UHGV virus genome: UHGV-0228494
Direction: 5' to 3' (one strand)
Source of the DNA: a virus
Length of the DNA stretch: 45,812 bases
Below the pieces are notes generated by a model, which was not told the DNA's origin, made no database searches, and worked only from the letters and a program-made list of their open reading frames with translations. Position 1 is the first letter of the stretch, and each line of letters starts with the position of its first letter. The position numbers and the translations under genes were made by a program. Below, piece after piece: positions 2,848-26,114 of the stretch.

Positions 2848-3165
2848 TTGGCTATTCATATGCACGAAAAAGAGAGCCTTGCCGGAGCGTTCTGGCTCGT
2901 TTTGCTGATCATCGCAGGTTGGGGCGGTCTGGTCCGCTACCTGATAGATGTGAAGCAGAGTAAAGCAACGTGGAGTTGGATAAATGCTCTGGCTCAAATA
3001 GTGGTATCAGGATTCACCGGTGTTATTGGTGGCCTGATCAGCATCGAAAGTGGATTCAGTATTTACATGATTCTCGCGACAGCGGGGATTAGTGGTGCGA
3101 TGGGTTCGGTTGCACTGACGTACTTCTGGGAACGACTGACAGGGGTGAAAAATGCAAAATCTTAA
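2848..3165 (+). CDS. S: Class I holin (lambda S-type, three TMDs, possible dual start M1/M5)
   Basis: 105 aa with three hydrophobic segments; immediately upstream of and overlapping the endolysin gene. Confidence 0.8.
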   Translation: MAIHMHEKESLAGAFWLVLLIIAGWGGLVRYLIDVKQSKATWSWINALAQIVVSGFTGVIGGLISIESGFSIYMILATAGISGAMGSVALTYFWERLTGVKNAKS

Positions 3166-3628
3166 TCCTCAGCGTAAAGCCTTCCTCGATATGTTGGCGT
3201 GGTCAGAAGGAACGGATAACGGGCGACAACCGACACGTAACCACGGTTATGATGTTATTGTTGGCGGCGAACTGTTTACTGATTACTCCGATCACCCTCG
3301 CAAACTTGTCACGCTACACCCCAAACTCAAATCAACAGCCGCCGGACGTTATCAGCTTCTTTCACGCTGGTGGGATGCTTACCGTAAACAGCTTGGTTTG
3401 AAAGACTTCTCCCCCAAAAGCCAGGACGCAGTGGCATTACAGCAGATTAAAGAGCGTGGTGCTTTACCGATGATTGATCGCGGTGATATCCGTCAGGCAA
3501 TCGACCGTTGCAGCAATATCTGGGCTTCACTGCCGGGCGCTGGTTATGGTCAGTTCGAGCATAAGGCTGACAGCCTGATTGCAAAATTCAAAGAAGCTGG
3601 CGGAACGCTCAGAGAGAGTGAGGTATGA
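3152..3628 (+). CDS. R: Endolysin, lambda R-type lytic transglycosylase
   Basis: 158 aa, [39 protein letters not shown]..., near-identical to lambda R as recalled. Confidence 0.95.
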
Positions 3629-4086
3629 GCAGAATAACCGCGATTATCTCCGCTCTGGTTATCTGCGTCATCGTCTGCCTTTCATGGGCGGTTAATCATT
3701 ACCGCGATAACGCGATTACCTACAAAGCCCAGCGCGACAAAAATGCCAGAGAACTGACGCTGGCGAACGCGGCAATTACTGACATACAGATGCGTCAGCG
3801 TGATGTTGCTGCGCTCGATGCAAAATACACGAAGGAGTTAGCTGATGCGAAAGCTGAAAATGATGCTCTGCGTGATGATGTTGCCGCTGGTCGTCGTCGG
3901 TTGCACATCAAAGCAGTCTGTCAGTCAGTGCGTGAAGCCACCACCGCCTCCGGCGTGGATAATGCAGCCTCCCCCCGACTGGCAGACACCGCTGAACGGG
4001 ATTATTTCACCCTCAGAGAGAGGCTGATCACTATGCAAAAACAACTGGAAGGAACCCAGAAGTATATTAATGAGCAGTGCAGATAG
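3625..4086 (+). CDS. Rz: Spanin inner-membrane subunit Rz
   Basis: 153 aa, N-terminal TMD then coiled coil; near-identical to lambda Rz as recalled. Confidence 0.95.
3845..4027 (+). CDS. Rz1: Spanin outer-membrane lipoprotein Rz1 (embedded in Rz in another frame)
   Basis: 60 aa, lipobox LVVVGC, proline-rich; wholly embedded in Rz. Confidence 0.9.
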
Positions 4087-4117
4087 AGCTGCCCATATCG
4101 ATGGGCAACTCATGCAA

Positions 4118-4411
4118 TTATTGTGAGCAATACACACGCGCTTCCAGCGGAGTATAAATGCCTAAAGTAATAAAACCGAGCAATCCATTTACGAATGTTT
4201 GCTGGGTTTCTGTTTTAACAACATTTTCTGCACCACCACAAATTTTTGCTGCATCGACAGTTTTCTTCTGCCCAATTCCCGAAACGAAGAAATGATGGGT
4301 GATGGTTTCCTTTGGTGTTACTGCTGTAGGTTTGTTTCCAACAGTAAACGTCTGTTGAGCACATCCTGTAATAAGCATTGCCAGAGCGGCAGAAAACAAC
4401 ATTTTTTTCAT
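4118..4411 (-). CDS. bor: Bor lipoprotein (serum-resistance moron)
   Basis: Internal start MKKMLFSAALAMLITGCAQQTFTV... with lipobox; near-identical to lambda Bor as recalled; opposite strand to late genes, as in lambda. Confidence 0.9.
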   Translation of the reverse strand: MKKMLFSAALAMLITGCAQQTFTVGNKPTAVTPKETITHHFFVSGIGQKKTVDAAKICGGAENVVKTETQQTFVNGLLGFITLGIYTPLEARVYCSQ

Positions 4412-4891
4412 CTTATTATCCTGCATTGTTAAAAACGGCAGAATCCTATGTGACAACAATTAAACGATAGTTAAATGGATTGATGAAAATTAAAACTACA
4501 CAGGTGGGCTCAGACTATTGGAGGAAGTTGGGGACACTCAGAATCCTGTGGAATGAAATAAACCGGTCTATCCGTCCATTACCCTTTTAGCTGCGCTGTA
4601 TCGTCGCCGTATTCCCGCATTAACCATGACCGTAGCCCGACGGGGAATTCCTTCTGCGTGAGTGTGCGGGAATAATTAAAAACGATGCACACCGGGTTTT
4701 TACCGCGTTAATGATTCGCGGGTTTATCCCGGTGCGATGGTGGAAGAAACAGGAAGCTGTATTACAGAAAGTGCTACTACTGTATCCCGATGCGATGTAT
4801 GTAATGTGAGTCAGATAATGGCACAGGATGTGGTGATGTGGCAGTCTGGAACACAGGATATATTGTCAGAATAAGACCCGTAGGAATAAAA

Positions 4892-5218
4892 ATGAAAAGA
4901 CGCCTTTTACTACTTTTTCTGTTATCTGTCCTGGCAGTGGGATGCTCGCAGCAAAAAGCTGATGAGCCCCGGCAATTAGTGACGGTGTATCCACGATATC
5001 CGGAATATGCTGCAGCAAATTATATCAAGGGGCTGGTTGAGGTTAAGTTCGATATTGGTGCTGATGGGACTGTGACACGGATCGTTTTTCTCCGCTCAGA
5101 GCCTCATAATTTGTTTCGTGATGAAGTGGTGAAGGCCATGGCGAAATGGCGATTTGAAAAGAATCGCCCCTGTCAGGGAGTGAAGAGACAATTTATCTTT
5201 ACGCCGTCACGTCCTTGA
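4892..5218 (+). CDS. Lipoprotein with TonB C-terminal-like domain (moron)
   Basis: MKRRLLLLFLLSVLAVGCSQQ signal/lipobox, then YPRYPEYAAANYIKGLVEVKFDIGADGTVTRIVFLRSEPHNLFRDEVVKAMAKWRF resembling the TonB C-terminal fold; AGGA RBS 6 nt upstream of ATG. Confidence 0.6.
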   Translation: MKRRLLLLFLLSVLAVGCSQQKADEPRQLVTVYPRYPEYAAANYIKGLVEVKFDIGADGTVTRIVFLRSEPHNLFRDEVVKAMAKWRFEKNRPCQGVKRQFIFTPSRP

Positions 5219-5340
5219 TGCTTCCAGGTAGAGAGGGGCTGGAAGCAGGAGAAAAATGAAAGAGCCAGCGGTTATATTTTTGTCATGGCTGACGAGGAAT
5301 GATGGAAGAAGGCGTTGTATGCCACACAACGCCTCACTGT

Positions 5341-5694
5341 TCATTTCTTCTTTTTCTCTGGTGGAACCCGATGAATAAGAGTTGCACTGGTTTCCGATGA
5401 GATGGCGATATACTCGGGCAAAGTATGCTGGCAGTTTTCCAACTGGTCAAAAATACCTGCTCTCGTCTGTTGCAATGCCTGCAGCATGCGGCGGCAATGC
5501 GCCTTGCTTTTACTAACCATCTTTCCTTCCTCTATCAGTCGCTGCGTGAACTCATCATGGAATACCAGGTAAATGCGGATGTTATCGGTTTTGGCTACGC
5601 AGCATAGTACAAAACGGACAGGTGCATCCCGGGACGGGGGAGGCGTCACATGTCCCTGTGATGGTTGTTCCGGGTAATGTACTGTGTGGGGCAT
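5341..5694 (-). CDS. Hypothetical protein (possibly the C-terminal frame of a disrupted gene)
   Basis: 117 aa ORF convergent with the TonB-like gene; a bidirectional hairpin at ~5311-5333 separates them; overlaps the next ORF in another frame. Confidence 0.3.
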   Translation of the reverse strand: MPHTVHYPEQPSQGHVTPPPSRDAPVRFVLCCVAKTDNIRIYLVFHDEFTQRLIEEGKMVSKSKAHCRRMLQALQQTRAGIFDQLENCQHTLPEYIAISSETSATLIHRVPPEKKKK

Positions 5695-5833
5695 AAAAAT
5701 GTCCGATAATTTTACTTTCTACCGCAGTTAGTTGATTCGTTGGTCCTGGTAGCACATTGGGCGAGGATTTAAATGCCAGGCAACTGAAGGATGATGTCGC
5801 AAGGGAGATAGCGAGAATATTTCTGATTTTCAT
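5582..5833 (-). CDS. Hypothetical secreted protein (signal peptide MKIRNILAISLATSSFSCLA), possibly frameshifted with 5341..5694
   Basis: Internal Met followed by a typical signal peptide; overlaps the neighbouring ORF by 113 nt in a different frame, suggesting a frameshift or pseudogene. Confidence 0.3.
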   Translation of the reverse strand: MKIRNILAISLATSSFSCLAFKSSPNVLPGPTNQLTAVESKIIGHFYAPHSTLPGTTITGTCDASPVPGCTCPFCTMLRSQNR

Positions 5834-5981
5834 TTGATGATGCCTCTGTGTGAAATGACGGTAAACGACGCACTTGTGCCGGCACATAATAGCAAGCACC
5901 ATAATAGATCAGATTCGATTCTTGCTGTAAGTGATAATTATTCTCGTTTTCGGGTCCTTTCCGTCGATCCAACAGGTTACG

Positions 5982-5993
5982 GGGCGGCGACCT
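5982..5993 (+). other. cos: cosN cohesive-end site (lambda type, GGGCGGCGACCT), with cosB-like sequence downstream up to Nu1
   Basis: Exact 12-nt lambda cohesive-end sequence followed by lambda-like CGCGGGTTTTCGCTATTTATGAAAATTTTCCGG, ~180 bp upstream of Nu1. Confidence 0.85.
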
Positions 5994-6170
5994 CGCGGGT
6001 TTTCGCTATTTATGAAAATTTTCCGGTTTAAGGCGTTTCCGTTCTTCTTCGCCGTAACTTAATGTTTTTATTTAAAACACTCCCTGAAAAGAAAGGAAAC
6101 GACAGGTGCTGAAAACGGGCTTTTTGGCCTCTGTCGTTTCCTTTCTCTGTTTTTGTCCGTGGAATGAACA

Positions 6171-6690
6171 ATGGAAGTCAACAAAAAGCAGCTGGCTGAC
6201 ATTTTCGGCGCGAGTATCCGTACTATTCAGAACTGGCAGGAGCAGGGAATGCCCGTTCTGCGAGGCGGTGGGAAGGGTAATGAGGTGCTTTATGACTCTG
6301 CCGACGTCATAAAATGGTATGCCGAAAGGGATGCTGAAATTGAGAACGAAAAGCTGCGCCGGGAGGTTGAAGAACTGCGACAGGCCAGCGAGACAGATCT
6401 CCAGCCAGGGACTATTGAGTACGAACGCCATCGACTTACGCGTGCGCAGGCCGACGCACAGGAGCTGAAAAATGCCAGAGACTCCGCTGAAGTGGTGGAA
6501 ACCGCATTCTGTACTTTCGTGCTGTCGCGGATCGCAGGTGAAATTGCCAGTATTCTCGACGGGATCCCCCTGTCGGTGCAGCGGCGTTTTCCGGAACTGG
6601 AAAACCGACATGTTGATTTCCTGAAACGGGATATCATCAAAGCCATGAACAAAGCAGCCGCGCTGGATGAACTGATACCGGGGTTGCTGA

Positions 6691-6716
<26 letters not shown>
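6171..6716 (+). CDS. Nu1: Terminase small subunit Nu1
   Basis: 181 aa, MEVNKKQLADIFGASIRTIQNWQEQGMPV..., near-identical to lambda Nu1 as recalled. Confidence 0.97.
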
Positions 6717-10397
<3,681 letters not shown>

Positions 10398-16113: not shown

Positions 16114-16529
16114 GTTTTGCCCTGAAACTGGCGCGTGAGATGGGGCGACCCGACTGGCGTGCCATGCTTGCCGGGATGTCATCCACGGAGTATGCCGACT
16201 GGCACCGCTTTTACAGTACCCATTATTTTCATGATGTTCTGCTGGATATGCACTTTTCCGGGCTGACGTACACCGTGCTCAGCCTGTTTTTCAGCGATCC
16301 GGATATGCATCCGCTGGATTTCAGTCTGCTGAACCGGCGCGAGGCTGACGAAGAGCCTGAAGATGATGTGCTGATGCAGAAAGCGGCAGGGCTTGCCGGA
16401 GGTGTCCGCTTTGGCCCGGACGGGAATGAAGTTATCCCCGCTTCCCCGGATGTGGCGGACATGACGGAGGATGACGTAATGCTGATGACAGTATCAGAAG
16501 GGATCGCAGGAGGAGTCCGGTATGGCTGA
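15691..16529 (+). CDS. T: Tail assembly chaperone G-T fusion made by programmed -1 ribosomal frameshift
   Basis: T frame (16095..16529) overlaps the G 3' end; slippery heptamer GGGAAAG at 16088-16094 as in lambda. Confidence 0.85.
16088..16094 (+). other. -1 programmed frameshift slippery site G_GGA_AAG (G to G-T)
   Basis: Heptamer read directly in GCGGGAAAGTG near the 3' end of G. Confidence 0.85.
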
Positions 16530-19083
16530 ACCGGTAGGCGATCTGGTCGTTGATTTGAGTCTGGATGCGGCCAGATTTGACGAGCAGATGGCCAGAGTCA
16601 GGCGTCATTTTTCCGGTACGGAAAGTGATGCGAAAAAAACAGCGGCAGTCGTTGAACAGTCGCTGAGCCGACAGGCGCTGGCTGCACAGAAAGCGGGGAT
16701 TTCCGTCGGGCAGTATAAAGCCGCCATGCGTATGCTGCCTGCACAGTTCACCGACGTGGCCACGCAGCTTGCAGGCGGGCAAAGTCCGTGGCTGATCCTG
16801 CTGCAACAGGGGGGGCAGGTGAAGGACTCCTTCGGCGGGATGATCCCCATGTTCAGGGGGCTTGCCGGTGCGATCACCCTGCCGATGGTGGGGGCCACCT
16901 CGCTGGCGGTGGCGACCGGTGCGCTGGCGTATGCCTGGTATCAGGGCAACTCAACCCTGTCCGATTTCAACAAAACGCTGGTCCTTTCCGGCAATCAGGC
17001 GGGTCTGACGGCAGATCGTATGCTGGTCCTGTCCAGAGCCGGGCAGGCGGCAGGGCTGACGTTTAACCAGACCAGCGAGTCACTCAGCGCACTGGTTAAG
17101 GCGGGGGTAAGCGGTGAGGCTCAGATTGCGTCCATCAGCCAGAGTGTGGCGCGTTTCTCCTCTGCATCCGGCGTGGAGGTGGACAAGGTCGCTGAAGCCT
17201 TCGGGAAGCTGACCACAGACCCGACGTCGGGGCTGACGGCGATGGCACGCCAGTTCCATAACGTGACGGCGGAGCAGATTGCGTATGTTGCTCAGTTGCA
17301 GCGTTCCGGCGATGAAGCCGGGGCATTGCAGGCGGCGAACGAGGCCGCAACGAAAGGGTTTGATGACCAGACCCGCCGCCTGAAAGAGAACATGGGCACG
17401 CTGGAGACCTGGGCAGACAGGACTGCGCGGGCATTCAAATCCATGTGGGATGCGGTGCTGGATATTGGTCGTCCTGATACCGCGCAGGAGATGCTGATTA
17501 AGGCAGAGGCTGCGTTTAAGAAAGCAGACGACATCTGGAATCTGCGCAAGGATGATTATTTTGTTAACGATGAAGCGCGGGCGCGTTACTGGGATGATCG
17601 TGAAAAGGCCCGTCTTGCGCTTGAAGCCGCCCGAAAGAAGGCTGAACAGCAGAGTCAACAGGACAAAAATGCGCAGCAGCAGAGCGATACCGAAGCGTCA
17701 CGGCTGAAATATACCGAAGAGGCGCAGAAGGCTTACGAACGGCTGCAGACGCCGCTGGAGAAATATGCCGCCCGTCAGGAAGAACTGAATAAGGCCCTGA
17801 AAGACGGAAAAATCCTGCAGGCAGATTACAACACGCTGATGGCGGCAGCGAAAAAGGACTATGAAACGACACTGAAAAAGCCGAAGCAGTCCGGCGTGAA
17901 GGTGTCTGCGGGCGATCGTCAGGAAGACAGTGCTCATGCTGCCCTGCTGACGCTTCAGGCTGAACTCCGGACGCTGGAGAAGCATGCCGGAGCAAATGAG
18001 AAAATCAGCCAGCAGCGCCGGGATTTGTGGAAGGCGGAGAGTCAGTTCGCGGTACTGGAGGAGGCGGCGCAACGTCGCCAGCTGTCTGTACAGGAGAAAT
18101 CCCTGCTGGCGCATAAAGATGAGACGCTGGAGTACAAACGCCAGCTGGCTGCACTTGGCGACAAGGTTACGTATCAGGAGCGCCTGAACGCGCTGGCGCA
18201 GCAGGCGGATAAATTCGCACAGCAGCAACGGGCAAAACGGGCCGCCATTGATGCGAAAAGCCGGGGGCTGACTGACCGGCAGGCAGAACGGGAAGCCACG
18301 GAACAGCGCCTGAAGGAACAGTATGGCGATAATCCGCTGGCGCTGAATAACGTCATGTCAGAGCAGAAAAAGACCTGGGCGGCTGAAGACCAGCTTCGCG
18401 GGAACTGGATGGCAGGCCTGAAGTCCGGCTGGAGTGAGTGGGAAGAGAGCGCCACGGACAGTATGTCGCAGGTAAAAAGTGCAGCCACGCAGACCTTTGA
18501 TGGTATTGCACAGAATATGGCGGCGATGCTGACCGGCAGTGAGCAGAACTGGCGCAGCTTCACCCGTTCCGTGCTGTCCATGATGACAGAAATTCTGCTT
18601 AAGCAGGCAATGGTGGGGATTGTCGGGAGTATCGGCAGCGCCATTGGCGGGGCTGTTGGTGGCGGCGCATCCGCGTCAGGCGGTACAGCCATTCAGGCCG
18701 CTGCGGCGAAATTCCATTTTGCAACCGGAGGATTTACGGGAACCGGCGGCAAATATGAGCCAGCGGGGATTGTTCACCGTGGTGAGTTTGTCTTCACGAA
18801 GGAGGCAACCAGCCGGATTGGCGTGGGGAATCTTTACCGGCTGATGCGCGGCTATGCCACCGGCGGTTATGTCGGTACACCGGGCAGCATGGCAGACAGC
18901 CGGTCGCAGGCGTCCGGGACGTTTGAGCAGAATAACCATGTGGTGATTAACAACGACGGCACGAACGGGCAGATAGGTCCGGCTGCTCTGAAGGCGGTGT
19001 ATGACATGGCCCGCAAGGGTGCCCGTGATGAAATTCAGACACAGATGCGTGATGGTGGCCTGTTCTCCGGAGGTGGACGATGA
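16522..19083 (+). CDS. H: Tail tape measure protein H
   Basis: 853 aa, same length as lambda gpH; MAEPVGDLVVDLSLDAARFDEQMARVRRH... Confidence 0.97.
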   Translation: MAEPVGDLVVDLSLDAARFDEQMARVRRHFSGTESDAKKTAAVVEQSLSRQALAAQKAGISVGQYKAAMRMLPAQFTDVATQLAGGQSPWLILLQQGGQVKDSFGGMIPMFRGLAGAITLPMVGATSLAVATGALAYAWYQGNSTLSDFNKTLVLSGNQAGLTADRMLVLSRAGQAAGLTFNQTSESLSALVKAGVSGEAQIASISQSVARFSSASGVEVDKVAEAFGKLTTDPTSGLTAMARQFHNVTAEQIAYVAQLQRSGDEAGALQAANEAATKGFDDQTRRLKENMGTLETWADRTARAFKSMWDAVLDIGRPDTAQEMLIKAEAAFKKADDIWNLRKDDYFVNDEARARYWDDREKARLALEAARKKAEQQSQQDKNAQQQSDTEASRLKYTEEAQKAYERLQTPLEKYAARQEELNKALKDGKILQADYNTLMAAAKKDYETTLKKPKQSGVKVSAGDRQEDSAHAALLTLQAELRTLEKHAGANEKISQQRRDLWKAESQFAVLEEAAQRRQLSVQEKSLLAHKDETLEYKRQLAALGDKVTYQERLNALAQQADKFAQQQRAKRAAIDAKSRGLTDRQAEREATEQRLKEQYGDNPLALNNVMSEQKKTWAAEDQLRGNWMAGLKSGWSEWEESATDSMSQVKSAATQTFDGIAQNMAAMLTGSEQNWRSFTRSVLSMMTEILLKQAMVGIVGSIGSAIGGAVGGGASASGGTAIQAAAAKFHFATGGFTGTGGKYEPAGIVHRGEFVFTKEATSRIGVGNLYRLMRGYATGGYVGTPGSMADSRSQASGTFEQNNHVVINNDGTNGQIGPAALKAVYDMARKGARDEIQTQMRDGGLFSGGGR

Positions 19084-21454: not shown

Positions 21455-26114
<4,660 letters not shown>

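What the first reader, a model, noticed from the sequence alone, without database searches (positions are those of the whole stretch)
4892..5218. Prophage lipoprotein with a TonB C-terminal-like domain next to bor
A 108-aa ORF with a lipoprotein signal (LLFLLSVLAVGCSQQ) carries a segment YPRYPEYAAANYIKGLVEVKFDIGADGTVTRIVFLRSEPHNLFRDEVVKAMAKWRF that resembles the TonB C-terminal domain, without the proline-rich spacer or N-terminal anchor of real TonB. A free periplasmic TonB-like domain could compete for TonB boxes of outer-membrane transporters. That would be a plausible superinfection-exclusion or colicin-protection function, by analogy with known phage lipoproteins that block FhuA (Cor, Llp). 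It sits among morons between Rz and cos.
Basis: partly seen in the sequence, partly recalled or inferred. Interest (0 to 1): 0.6.

Follow-up and report, generated by a model that had tools for sequence, protein, structure and literature searches.

The report
Prophage lipoprotein carrying a TonB end-domain
A lambdoid prophage gene, found in about 30% of complete E. coli genomes, encodes the outer-membrane-docking end of the TonB energy-coupling protein fused to a lipid anchor; it probably acts as a decoy on TonB-dependent outer-membrane gates, but this has never been tested.

Summary
Window 4892-5218 (+) encodes a 108-aa protein with a lipoprotein signal (Cys18) and one complete TonB C-terminal domain. 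It scores 49.2 bits on Pfam TonB_C (cut-off 24.6). The AlphaFold model superposes on transporter-bound E. coli TonB at 0.9-1.0 Å. It has no membrane anchor for ExbB/ExbD and no proline-rich rod.

The gene lies after Rz/Rz1 and bor/iss, 764 nt before cosN. It is identical to phage 21 gene CPT_21_73, already annotated "TonB C-terminal domain protein", so the observation itself is not new.

It is not a decaying tonB fragment:
- dN/dS between the two E. coli alleles is 0.11-0.13.
- The lipid-anchor cysteine is invariant in 29 relatives (31-85% identity) across Enterobacterales, some in prophages and some chromosomal.
- The identical copy in strain LF82 is transcribed in the lysogen.

Best explanation (confidence 0.42): an outer-membrane-tethered decoy that occupies TonB boxes, or TonB itself, and damps TonB-dependent entry of phages, colicins and microcins. 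Engineered periplasmic TonB fragments are reported to inhibit TonB-dependent iron import. I found no experimental test of this protein. Strong constitutive inhibition seems unlikely, because lineages I recall as siderophore-dependent carry it.

Verdict: a new variant of a known kind; interest moderate.

The parts
4892..5218 (+). Coding sequence of the 108-aa lipoprotein with a TonB C-terminal domain (stop codon included)
   Evidence: ORF list and sequence. Identical to phage 21 CPT_21_73 / UMO75484.1 and RefSeq WP_000830178.1 'TonB family protein'. dN/dS 0.11-0.13 against the 72%-identical allele.
4883..4886 (+). Ribosome-binding site AGGA, 5 nt before the ATG
   Evidence: Read from the sequence. 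An RBS is annotated at the equivalent place in phage 21.
4892..4945 (+). Lipoprotein signal peptide and lipobox (aa 1-18, MKRRLLLLFLLSVLAVGC); Cys18 is the predicted acylated first residue of the mature protein, and +2 is Ser
   Evidence: Sequence. Cys18 is invariant in 29 homologues of 31-85% identity, and +2 is S/T/A/V, never D. Lipoboxes are also present in the Klebsiella, Raoultella, Erwinia and Sodalis copies.
4946..4966 (+). Short, variable tether (aa 19-25, SQQKADE) between the lipid anchor and the folded domain
   Evidence: Low pLDDT in the model. High column entropy in the family, 2.21 bits.
4967..5200 (+). TonB C-terminal domain (aa 26-103, equivalent to E. coli TonB 153-230): short strand, helix 1, strands 1 and 2, helix 2, strand 3
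   Evidence: Pfam and TIGRFAM hits above cut-off. PDB sequence match. AlphaFold2 pLDDT above 95. Foldseek TM 0.88-0.92 to 1u07, 2gsk_B and 2grx_C.
5171..5200 (+). Predicted edge strand beta-3 (aa 94-103, CQGVKRQFIF), equivalent to TonB 221-230, the strand that pairs with the TonB box in the solved complexes; followed by a Pro-containing 5-residue tail (TPSRP) instead of TonB's last 9 residues
   Evidence: Secondary structure of the model. Alignment to TonB. The role of TonB beta-3 in TonB-box pairing is stated in PMC11658791 and PMC5413942.
3625..4086 (+). Context: Rz (i-spanin), with Rz1 (o-spanin) embedded at 3845-4027; end of the lysis cassette
   Evidence: ORFs. Phage 21 annotation of 99.66%-identical DNA.
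4118..4411 (-). Context: bor/iss lipoprotein moron on the opposite strand
   Evidence: ORF. Annotated 'outer membrane lipoprotein complement inhibitor' in phage 21 and 'Iss' by PGAP.
5982..5993 (+). Context: cosN cohesive-end sequence GGGCGGCGACCT; the phage 21 genome record ends at window 5981
   Evidence: Alignment of the end of the phage 21 record to the window. cosQ is annotated 23-29 nt upstream in phage 21.

Best explanation
[quoted passage not shown] There a tether of about 7-9 residues holds one complete TonB C-terminal domain directly under the outer-membrane barrels.

The protein has no transmembrane helix to engage ExbB/ExbD and no periplasm-spanning rod. It therefore cannot deliver energy. 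I propose it acts as a dominant-negative decoy. [quoted passage not shown] In both cases real TonB engages the transporters less often.

The expected consequence is partial or selective protection against agents that need TonB to enter: phages such as T1 and phi80, group B colicins, catecholate microcins and sideromycins. It would be a moron that benefits the lysogen.

Shown here: the architecture, the fold, the conserved lipid anchor, purifying selection, the position after the lysis cassette, and (from a paper) lysogenic transcription of the identical gene. Inferred: outer-membrane location, binding to TonB boxes, and the protective phenotype.
For: Fold and homology: Pfam TonB_C at 49.2 bits against a cut-off of 24.6; PDB sequence match to E. 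coli TonB 151-230 at E=1.4e-14; model pLDDT 87; rmsd 0.9-1.0 Å to the FhuA-bound and BtuB-bound forms of TonB.

No energy-coupling parts: full-length TonB models match only at their C-terminal end and far below cut-off.

Lipid anchor is a family trait: Cys18 is invariant in 29 sequences and +2 is never Asp. It is kept in the Klebsiella phage, Sodalis prophage and chromosomal Raoultella, Klebsiella and Erwinia copies.

The gene is functional, not a remnant: dN/dS is 0.11-0.13 at dS of about 1.4. It is present in 1617 of 5426 complete E. coli genomes.

Moron behaviour: it sits just after Rz/Rz1 in lambdoid backbones with different terminases, with or without bor. It holds the same position in a Klebsiella phage and a Sodalis prophage. 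The identical gene in prophage Perceval is transcribed 8-fold above prophage background in an LF82 lysogen (PMC9928086 Table 1).

Mechanistic precedent: overexpressed periplasmic TonB domain inhibited iron import through TonB-dependent transporters, and a TonB-box pentapeptide reduced colicin killing and phi80 infection (PMC9841981 citing Howard et al. 2001 and Tuckman & Osburne 1992). The TonB box pairs with TonB beta-3 by strand addition. The outer-membrane lipoprotein Llp excludes T5 by docking on the periplasmic face of FhuA, which bound TonB also occupies.
Against: No experiment on this protein was found in eight full-text searches. Binding and phenotype are entirely inferred.

The gene is carried by strains such as ST131-type isolates and LF82. 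From my own knowledge, these lineages depend on TonB-driven siderophore uptake, so a strong constitutive block of TonB would be costly. Any effect must be partial, selective or conditional.

Three TonB residues that I recall as implicated in TonB-box contacts are replaced: R158 by T, Q160 by Y, R166 by Y (alignment).

Beta-3 is the most variable structured element of the family. This could mean partner-specific adaptation, or that beta-3 is not the functional surface.

Chromosomal, non-phage members exist, so the ancestral role need not be anti-phage. There is no PADLOC defence-model hit. No sigma-70 promoter or Fur box was recognisable upstream.
Confidence: 0.42

Rival explanations
1. It is an outer-membrane lipoprotein whose TonB-like domain binds something other than TonB boxes, for example peptidoglycan or another envelope protein. 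It would then serve envelope stability or host interaction, as a fitness or virulence moron like its neighbour bor/iss, with no effect on TonB-dependent entry.
For: Chromosomal members of the family sit in ordinary metabolic neighbourhoods: lacZ/lacI in Klebsiella and Raoultella, araA and an ABC transporter in Erwinia. The gene lies next to the serum-resistance lipoprotein gene bor/iss. R158, Q160 and R166 equivalents are not conserved. Beta-3 is the most variable strand. Carriage by siderophore-dependent lineages argues against strong TonB inhibition. From my own knowledge, the TonB C-terminal domain has been reported to have affinity for peptidoglycan.
Against: The domain keeps the whole TonB C-terminal fold, including the edge strand, at 0.9-1.0 Å from the transporter-bound conformations. 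It also keeps the PxYP motif and the aromatic residues equivalent to TonB F180, F202, W213, Y215 and F230. The only documented partners of this fold in the papers read are TonB boxes. A short tether places it exactly where TonB boxes emerge.
Confidence: 0.25
2. Its main role is in the lytic cycle. It lies on the late transcript between the lysis genes and cos, so it would be made late in infection. It could then modify the envelope to help lysis or release, or protect progeny from adsorbing to debris (the second role of T5 Llp), rather than serving the lysogen.
For: It has the same orientation as, and lies directly downstream of, S-R-Rz/Rz1 with no recognisable promoter of its own. The position after the lysis cassette is conserved across genera. 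Its PHROG (1267) is labelled 'Rz-like spanin'.
Against: Canonical Rz/Rz1, or separate spanin genes, are present in every phage context examined, so a spanin role is redundant. The protein is a globular domain, not a short proline-rich o-spanin. It is transcribed in the lysogen. Non-phage chromosomal copies exist. After lysis there is no proton-motive force, so blocking TonB would add nothing (inference).
Confidence: 0.13
3. It is a functionless leftover: a fragment of a tonB gene picked up by a phage and carried along passively, as annotations such as 'TonB fragment' and 'partial tonB-like membrane protein' suggest.
For: It covers only the last third of TonB. Several database records call it partial or a fragment.
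Against: dN/dS is 0.11-0.13 across two alleles with saturated synonymous divergence. It has acquired a lipoprotein signal, and that signal is invariantly kept. It is closer to the lipoprotein family of other Enterobacterales (45-49% identity) than to E. coli TonB (38-40%). It is intact in 1612 genomes and transcribed.
Confidence: 0.03

Closest known systems
TonB (E. coli), C-terminal domain, residues ~150-239 (PDB 1U07, 1XX3, 2GRX, 2GSK)
   Same: Homologous domain with the same fold (38-40% identity; TM 0.88-0.92; rmsd 0.9-1.2 Å). The PxYP motif, the aromatic core residues and the beta-3 edge strand are retained.
   Different: It lacks the N-terminal transmembrane helix that couples to ExbB/ExbD, and lacks the proline-rich rod. 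A lipoprotein signal anchors it to the opposite (outer) membrane. R158, Q160 and R166 equivalents are T, Y and Y. It ends 4 residues short of TonB's C-terminus, and its last 5 residues (TPSRP) are unrelated to TonB's last 9. It fails the full-length TonB equivalog models.
Engineered periplasmic TonB fragments (Howard et al. 2001, as cited in PMC9841981)
   Same: A TonB periplasmic or C-terminal domain uncoupled from the energy source and placed in the periplasm. It is reported to inhibit iron import through TonB-dependent transporters. This is the closest analogue for how the protein would work.
   Different: Those were artificial, soluble, overexpressed constructs. This protein is natural, lipid-tethered, under selection and phage-borne. 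Its inhibition has not been tested.
Llp (phage T5) and Cor (phi80, N15, HK022): exclusion lipoproteins that inactivate FhuA
   Same: Small phage-encoded outer-membrane (inner-leaflet) lipoproteins. Llp acts on the periplasmic face of a TonB-dependent transporter and shares that docking surface with TonB.
   Different: There is no sequence or fold relationship: Pfam returns only TonB_C and the viral fold library returns nothing. Llp and Cor are specific for FhuA and act allosterically on its surface loops. A TonB decoy would act on the common TonB box, so potentially on many transporters, and only on TonB-dependent steps.
Bor / Iss lipoprotein (lambda bor)
   Same: The neighbouring moron in the same gap between the lysis genes and cos. 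It is also a small outer-membrane lipoprotein expressed from the prophage.
   Different: Unrelated sequence, on the opposite strand, with a serum-resistance function.
Rz1-type o-spanins (the label carried by PHROG 1267)
   Same: Small phage lipoproteins encoded at the end of the lysis cassette. The protein matches PHROG 1267 at E=5e-43.
   Different: It is a globular TonB_C domain rather than a short proline-rich peptide. It is not embedded in or paired with an i-spanin gene. A canonical Rz/Rz1 pair is present upstream. The PHROG label looks like an annotation error.

Membership tests
TonB_C domain family (Pfam PF03544 / TIGR01352) | Profile score above the curated cut-off | tested here: met
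   PF03544: 49.2 bits against 24.6, E=7.3e-13. TIGR01352: 47.4 bits against 27.1.
TonB_C domain family (Pfam PF03544 / TIGR01352) | [quoted passage not shown] | tested here: met
   AlphaFold2 model with domain pLDDT above 95. Foldseek top 11 hits are all TonB or FusB C-terminal domains, with TM 0.76-0.92 for 10 of them.
TonB energy transducer (NCBIfam equivalogs NF008080-NF008084) | Full-length match above the equivalog cut-off: N-terminal transmembrane helix, proline-rich spacer and C-terminal domain | tested here: not met
   Scores are 45-69 bits against cut-offs of 265-448. Only model positions ~150-240 align. The 25 residues ahead of the domain are a signal peptide plus a 7-residue linker.
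TonB energy transducer (NCBIfam equivalogs NF008080-NF008084) | Binding of transporter TonB boxes through strand beta-3 | not testable with these tools
   Beta-3 is predicted (aa 94-103). No complex prediction or binding assay was possible.
Bacterial outer-membrane lipoproteins | Signal peptide with a lipobox ending in Cys; residue +2 not Asp | tested here: met
   MKRR, then a hydrophobic core, then A-V-G-C18-S19. Cys is invariant, and +2 is S/T/A/V in 29 homologues. Lipidation and localisation themselves were not tested.
Morons of lambdoid phages | Accessory gene in a conserved slot between essential modules, present or absent among related phages, and expressed from the prophage | tested here: met
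   The slot after Rz/Rz1 is conserved across backbones. The gene is absent from 20 related sit-carrying lambdoid phages. Lysogenic transcription is 8-fold above background for the identical gene in Perceval. An own promoter and terminator were not identified.
Superinfection-exclusion lipoproteins Cor / Llp | Sequence or fold relationship to Cor or Llp | tested here: not met
   The Pfam scan at E up to 10 returns only TonB_C. There is no hit at E<=1e-3 in the viral structure library, whereas Llp-like folds are reported there.
Superinfection-exclusion lipoproteins Cor / Llp | Blocks infection through a TonB-dependent transporter | not testable with these tools
   Needs plating assays; no published test was found.
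Rz1-like o-spanins (label of PHROG 1267) | Short proline-rich lipoprotein encoded within or beside an i-spanin gene and required for outer-membrane disruption | tested here: not met
   It matches the PHROG at E=5e-43, but it is a folded TonB_C domain. It lies 805 nt downstream of Rz with bor in between, and Rz1 is already present at 3845-4027.
Known anti-phage defence systems (PADLOC-DB) | Match to a defence-system protein model | tested here: not met
   No hit at E<=0.01 for this protein or its small neighbours.

The most novel reading that the evidence does not exclude
Lipidated stand-alone TonB C-terminal domains would be a natural class of 'anti-TonB' brakes. Tethered under the outer membrane, they would occupy TonB boxes in general and close many TonB-dependent gates at once. 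Lambdoid prophages, including phage 21 and the icd-integrated prophage seen in ST131-type strains, would have borrowed one to give lysogens broad, tunable tolerance to TonB-dependent phages, group B colicins, catecholate microcins and siderophore-conjugated antibiotics such as cefiderocol. The co-carried SitABCD importer would compensate for lost iron by a TonB-independent route.
Probability: 0.25. Interest if true: 0.8.

Novelty: new variant of a known kind. Interest (0 to 1): 0.5.

Why it matters
If the decoy model holds, one small prophage gene would modulate every TonB-dependent gate of the cell, not a single receptor as Cor and Llp do. The gene is present in about 30% of complete E. coli genomes, including phage 21 and pandemic-lineage strains.

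That would bear on three practical matters:
- phage-therapy host ranges, because many coliphages use FhuA, FepA, BtuB or other TonB-dependent transporters;
- colicin and microcin competition in the gut;
- susceptibility to siderophore-conjugated drugs.

It would also show that bacteria and phages use a detached TonB domain as a regulator. That gives TonB researchers a natural dominant-negative tool, and it gives a function to an unstudied family of chromosomal lipoproteins in Klebsiella, Raoultella, Erwinia and Pantoea. The test is cheap: one clone plus standard phage, colicin and iron-uptake assays. If it fails, the gene is still a widespread, selected, expressed lipoprotein of unknown role.

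Tried and rejected
- First structure prediction, with a 7-sequence alignment, gave a poor model (pLDDT 58.9). It was replaced by a 29-sequence alignment (pLDDT 87.1).
- The genome-collection scan with the 12-sequence alignment failed because no stretch was conserved enough. It was repeated with 5 sequences.
- The afdb50 fold library was unavailable.
- Fur-box search: no match with 3 or fewer mismatches anywhere in the window, and at most 11/19 upstream of the gene. The best Fur-like matches (14-15/19 at 5927-5951) lie beside cosQ/cosN and are probably part of the AT-rich cos region. Iron regulation is therefore unsupported.
- Promoter scan: no plus-strand sigma-70-like site upstream at the tool's threshold, and only weak 8/12 matches with a relaxed scan.
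- Rfam scan of 4000-6300: nothing above noise.
- PADLOC: nothing.
- Viral fold library: nothing.
- Link to sitABCD: all six distinct phages with the identical allele carry sitABCD. However, 20 sit-carrying records lack the gene and the allele-2 phages lack sit. The link is explained by shared descent and is not independent evidence.
- Receptor of the carrier phages: the phage 21 J C-terminus is only ~55% identical to lambda-type J proteins, and I could not assign a receptor. In the window itself J is truncated. Self-exclusion versus exclusion of other phages is unresolved.
- The Howard et al. 2001 paper could not be read and is cited only through PMC9841981.
- The 'decaying tonB fragment' and 'spanin' readings were considered and rejected (see rivals and membership test).
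Full report

Yes. An ORF runs from the ATG at 4892 to the stop at 5216-5218 on the + strand (108 aa), preceded by AGGA at 4883-4886. An upstream GTG at 4838 would add 18 residues ahead of the signal peptide, but no homologue has them.

The N-terminus MKRRLLLLFLLSVLAVGC-S has a positively charged start, an uncharged hydrophobic core and an A-V-G-C lipobox. Ser at +2 (not Asp) predicts outer-membrane sorting under the established Lol rules.

The rest of the protein is one TonB C-terminal domain:
- Pfam TonB_C: E=7.3e-13, 49.2 bits against a gathering score of 24.6.
- TIGR01352: 47.4 bits against 27.1.
- phmmer against solved structures: E. coli TonB C-terminal domain (1U07) at E=1.4e-14, with residues 24-103 aligned to TonB 151-230 without gaps.

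Full-length TonB equivalog models align only with their last ~90 positions and score 45-69 bits against cut-offs of 265-448. The membrane anchor and proline-rich rod are therefore absent.

**2. Structure**

A first AlphaFold2 run on seven close sequences was poor (pLDDT 58.9). With a 29-sequence family alignment the model reached mean pLDDT 87.1, and above 95 throughout residues ~28-103. The order of elements is: short strand 28-30, helix 38-42, strands 47-55 and 61-70, helix 76-83, strand 94-103.

Foldseek against the PDB returns only TonB-type C-terminal domains at the top:

| PDB chain | Description | TM (target-normalised) | rmsd |
|---|---|---|---|
| 1U07 | E. coli TonB C-terminal domain | 0.88-0.90 | 1.2-1.3 Å |
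| 2GSK_B | BtuB-bound TonB | 0.92 | 1.0 Å |
| 2GRX_C | FhuA-bound TonB | 0.92 | 0.9 Å |

Relative to E. coli TonB (position offset +127):
- The PxYP motif is kept (P34, Y36, P37).
- The aromatic residues equivalent to F180, F202, W213, Y215 and F230 are kept.
- R158, Q160 and R166 are replaced by T31, Y33 and Y39.
- The chain ends in TPSRP, four residues short of TonB's C-terminus.

**3. Context**

The gene lies after Q (1849-2538), S (2848-3165), R (3152-3628), Rz (3625-4086) with Rz1 (3845-4027), and bor/iss (4118-4411, minus strand). It lies 764 nt before the cohesive end GGGCGGCGACCT at 5982-5993, which is followed by nu1 (6171-6716) and the large terminase (6691-8616).

Window 3625-5981 is 99.66% identical to the right end of phage 21. 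There the gene is CPT_21_73, annotated "TonB C-terminal domain protein". RefSeq calls it "TonB family protein" (WP_000830178.1). In strain 4/1-1 it sits in a prophage integrated next to icd.

The resemblance to TonB is already recorded in public annotation, including "TonB fragment" in phage Perceval and [quoted passage not shown] in ev017.

**4. A selected gene family, not a fragment**

The gene occurs in 1617 of 5426 complete E. coli genomes, with up to four copies per genome. In 1202 of them it is ≥99% identical, and in 392 it is a second allele at 60-80% DNA identity. The two alleles differ at 30 of 108 residues, with dS about 1.4 and dN/dS of 0.11-0.13. That is clear purifying selection.

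An exhaustive profile search finds thousands of TonB_C proteins. The best full-length matches are short (104-135 aa) proteins with the same layout. They come from:
- a Klebsiella phage;
- a Sodalis prophage;
- the chromosomes of Klebsiella, Raoultella and Erwinia, plus relatives that their sources label Rahnella, Pantoea and Salmonella.

In a 29-sequence alignment (31-85% identity to the window protein) the lipobox Cys is invariant and +2 is S/T/A/V, never D. The window protein is closer to these lipoproteins (45-49% to the Klebsiella and Raoultella copies) than to E. coli TonB (38-40%). "Fragment of host tonB" is therefore a misleading description.

In the Klebsiella phage and the Sodalis prophage the gene again sits between the lysis genes and the terminase. 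Among E. coli prophages it follows Rz/Rz1 in backbones with lambda-type, divergent or unrelated terminases, with or without bor.

The Klebsiella sp., Raoultella and Erwinia copies lie beside lacZ/lacI, araA or transporter genes with no phage genes nearby. The family is therefore not phage-specific.

**5. Expression**

A published transcriptome of E. coli LF82 lists the identical gene of prophage Perceval (LF82_160, "TonB fragment") among prophage genes transcribed in the lysogen. It is 8-fold above the local prophage background, alongside sitABCD and nmpC (PMC9928086, Table 1).

I could not find a convincing sigma-70 promoter or Fur box upstream. The gene has the same orientation as the late operon, so it should also be made late in lytic growth.

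**6. How it most likely works**

What is shown:
- a lipoprotein signal fused by a short variable tether to a complete TonB C-terminal domain;
- no parts that could connect to ExbB/ExbD;
- conservation and selection;
- lysogenic transcription.

Established knowledge from the papers read:
- TonB's C-terminal domain binds the TonB box of ligand-loaded transporters by adding the box as a strand next to beta-3 (PMC11658791; PMC5413942).
- Overexpressing the periplasmic domain of TonB inhibited iron import through TonB-dependent transporters, and a TonB-box pentapeptide reduced colicin killing and phi80 infection (same paper, citing Howard et al. 2001 and Tuckman & Osburne 1992).
- T5 Llp is an outer-membrane lipoprotein that blocks FhuA from the periplasmic side, on a surface that bound TonB also occupies.

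Inference: a TonB C-terminal domain held by lipid in the inner leaflet of the outer membrane is concentrated exactly where TonB boxes emerge, and it cannot pull. It should compete with real TonB, either for TonB boxes or by pairing with TonB's own C-terminal domain. That would damp TonB-dependent uptake and protect against agents that need TonB. I give this 0.42.

**7. Arguments against the decoy model**

- Nothing here or in the literature I could search tests the protein. Eight full-text searches found no such test. One of the papers they surfaced, a 2024 review of superinfection exclusion, lists Cor but no TonB decoy.
- The gene is common in lineages that, to my knowledge, rely on TonB-dependent siderophore uptake for fitness. 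A strong constitutive block is therefore unlikely, and any effect should be partial, selective or conditional.
- Three residues I recall as TonB-box contacts are changed.
- Beta-3 is the most variable structured element of the family (mean column entropy 1.98 bits against ~1.0-1.25 for the other strands and helix 2).
- Between the two E. coli alleles, substitutions are enriched in the segments equivalent to TonB 158-166 and 221-232 (9 of 21 positions against 10 of 62; one-sided Fisher p=0.016). This fits partner-driven diversification. It equally fits an exposed edge under weak constraint, so I count it as ambiguous.
- Chromosomal members suggest an ancestral housekeeping role that is unknown.

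**8. Rivals**

| Rival | Confidence | Main objection |
|---|---|---|
| Envelope or virulence lipoprotein with a different partner | 0.25 | The only documented partners of this fold in the papers read are TonB boxes |
| Primarily lytic-cycle role, including the "Rz-like spanin" label of PHROG 1267 (E=5e-43) | 0.13 | Canonical spanins are present in every phage context; the protein is a globular domain |
| Inert remnant | 0.03 | Effectively refuted by dN/dS, the conserved lipobox and transcription |

**9. A lead that did not hold as evidence**

Phage 21 also carries sitABCD, a TonB-independent Fe/Mn importer. All six distinct phages with the identical TonB_C allele carry it. However, 20 sit-carrying phage records lack the TonB_C gene, and the allele-2 carriers (Stx1a phages, JLK-2012) lack sit. 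The pairing is best explained by common descent. It remains a tidy hypothesis, a decoy plus a compensating importer, but it is not support.

**10. Comparison with known systems and novelty**

The protein is a member of the TonB_C domain family (tests met). It is not a TonB energy transducer (test failed). It is a predicted outer-membrane lipoprotein and a moron.

It would work like the engineered periplasmic TonB fragments, and would resemble Llp and Cor in purpose and location, without being related to either. No characterised system consists of a lipid-tethered stand-alone TonB C-terminal domain, so I rate it a new variant of a known kind.

Interest is moderate (0.5). The annotation is already public and the hypothesis is one a TonB or phage specialist would readily form. 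Against that, the gene is very widespread, sits in a classical phage, is unstudied, and can be tested with one clone and standard assays. The result could matter for phage, colicin and sideromycin susceptibility.

Noticed in passing
window 21455-23647 (+) and 23493-25976 (-): Two N-terminal portions of tail-tip J genes (730 and 827 aa ORFs, each with FNIII-A_GpJ, Phage-tail_3 and Ig_J domains) meet head-on at about 23641. The tail modules of two different lambdoid prophages converge here: tape measure of 853 aa at 16522-19083 (+) and of 1080 aa at 28683-31925 (-). No complete E. coli genome among 5426 has this junction contiguous. It is either a strain-specific deletion or rearrangement, or an assembly chimera. 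As a result, neither prophage has a J receptor-binding end in the window.
   Followed up: partly
window 4892-5218 (PHROG 1267): The PHROG family that this TonB_C lipoprotein matches at E=5e-43 is labelled 'Rz-like spanin', although canonical Rz/Rz1 lie upstream. The label is probably an annotation error and will spread through PHROG-based phage annotation.
   Followed up: partly
L100 7468-10917 (phage 21 record 21967-25416): Phage 21, Perceval, ev017 and three PhiR phages carry the identical TonB_C gene, and all also carry the sitABCD Fe/Mn ABC importer as a moron after the side tail fibre genes. Twenty other sit-carrying phage records lack the TonB_C gene. This could be functional pairing (a TonB-independent iron route) or simply shared descent.
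   Followed up: partly
window 4737-4874 (+): A 45-aa ORF ends 17 nt before the TonB_C start. It is annotated hypothetical in phage 21 (CPT_21_72) and is 98-100% conserved wherever allele 1 occurs, but absent from allele-2 loci. It has no family hit. It could be a co-transcribed partner or may not be a gene.
   Followed up: no
window 5582-5833 (-): An unannotated minus-strand ORF starts MKIRNILAISLATSSFSCLA (signal-peptide-like) and has a Cys-rich C-terminal part. It lies between the TonB_C gene and cos. It has no Pfam or PADLOC hit, and public annotations place small plus-strand ORFs here instead.
   Followed up: no
window 5927-5951: The best Fur-box-like matches of the whole 45.8-kb window are here: 14/19 and 15/19, overlapping with a 6-nt shift. 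They lie immediately next to cosQ/cosN, about 710 nt downstream of the TonB_C gene. They probably reflect the AT-rich cos region rather than iron regulation.
   Followed up: no
window 4590-4735: The segment upstream of the gene is conserved between the two otherwise divergent alleles and contains inverted repeats (CCCGCA...TGCGGG, CCGCG...CGCGG). It has no Rfam match. It could be a regulatory or terminator-like element.
   Followed up: no
L085 (Modestobacter excelsi contig NZ_SJEX01000172.1, 418 nt): A 418-nt contig in an actinobacterial genome assembly is 100% identical at protein level to the first 67 residues of this E. coli prophage gene. This is almost certainly E. coli contamination in that assembly.
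   Followed up: no
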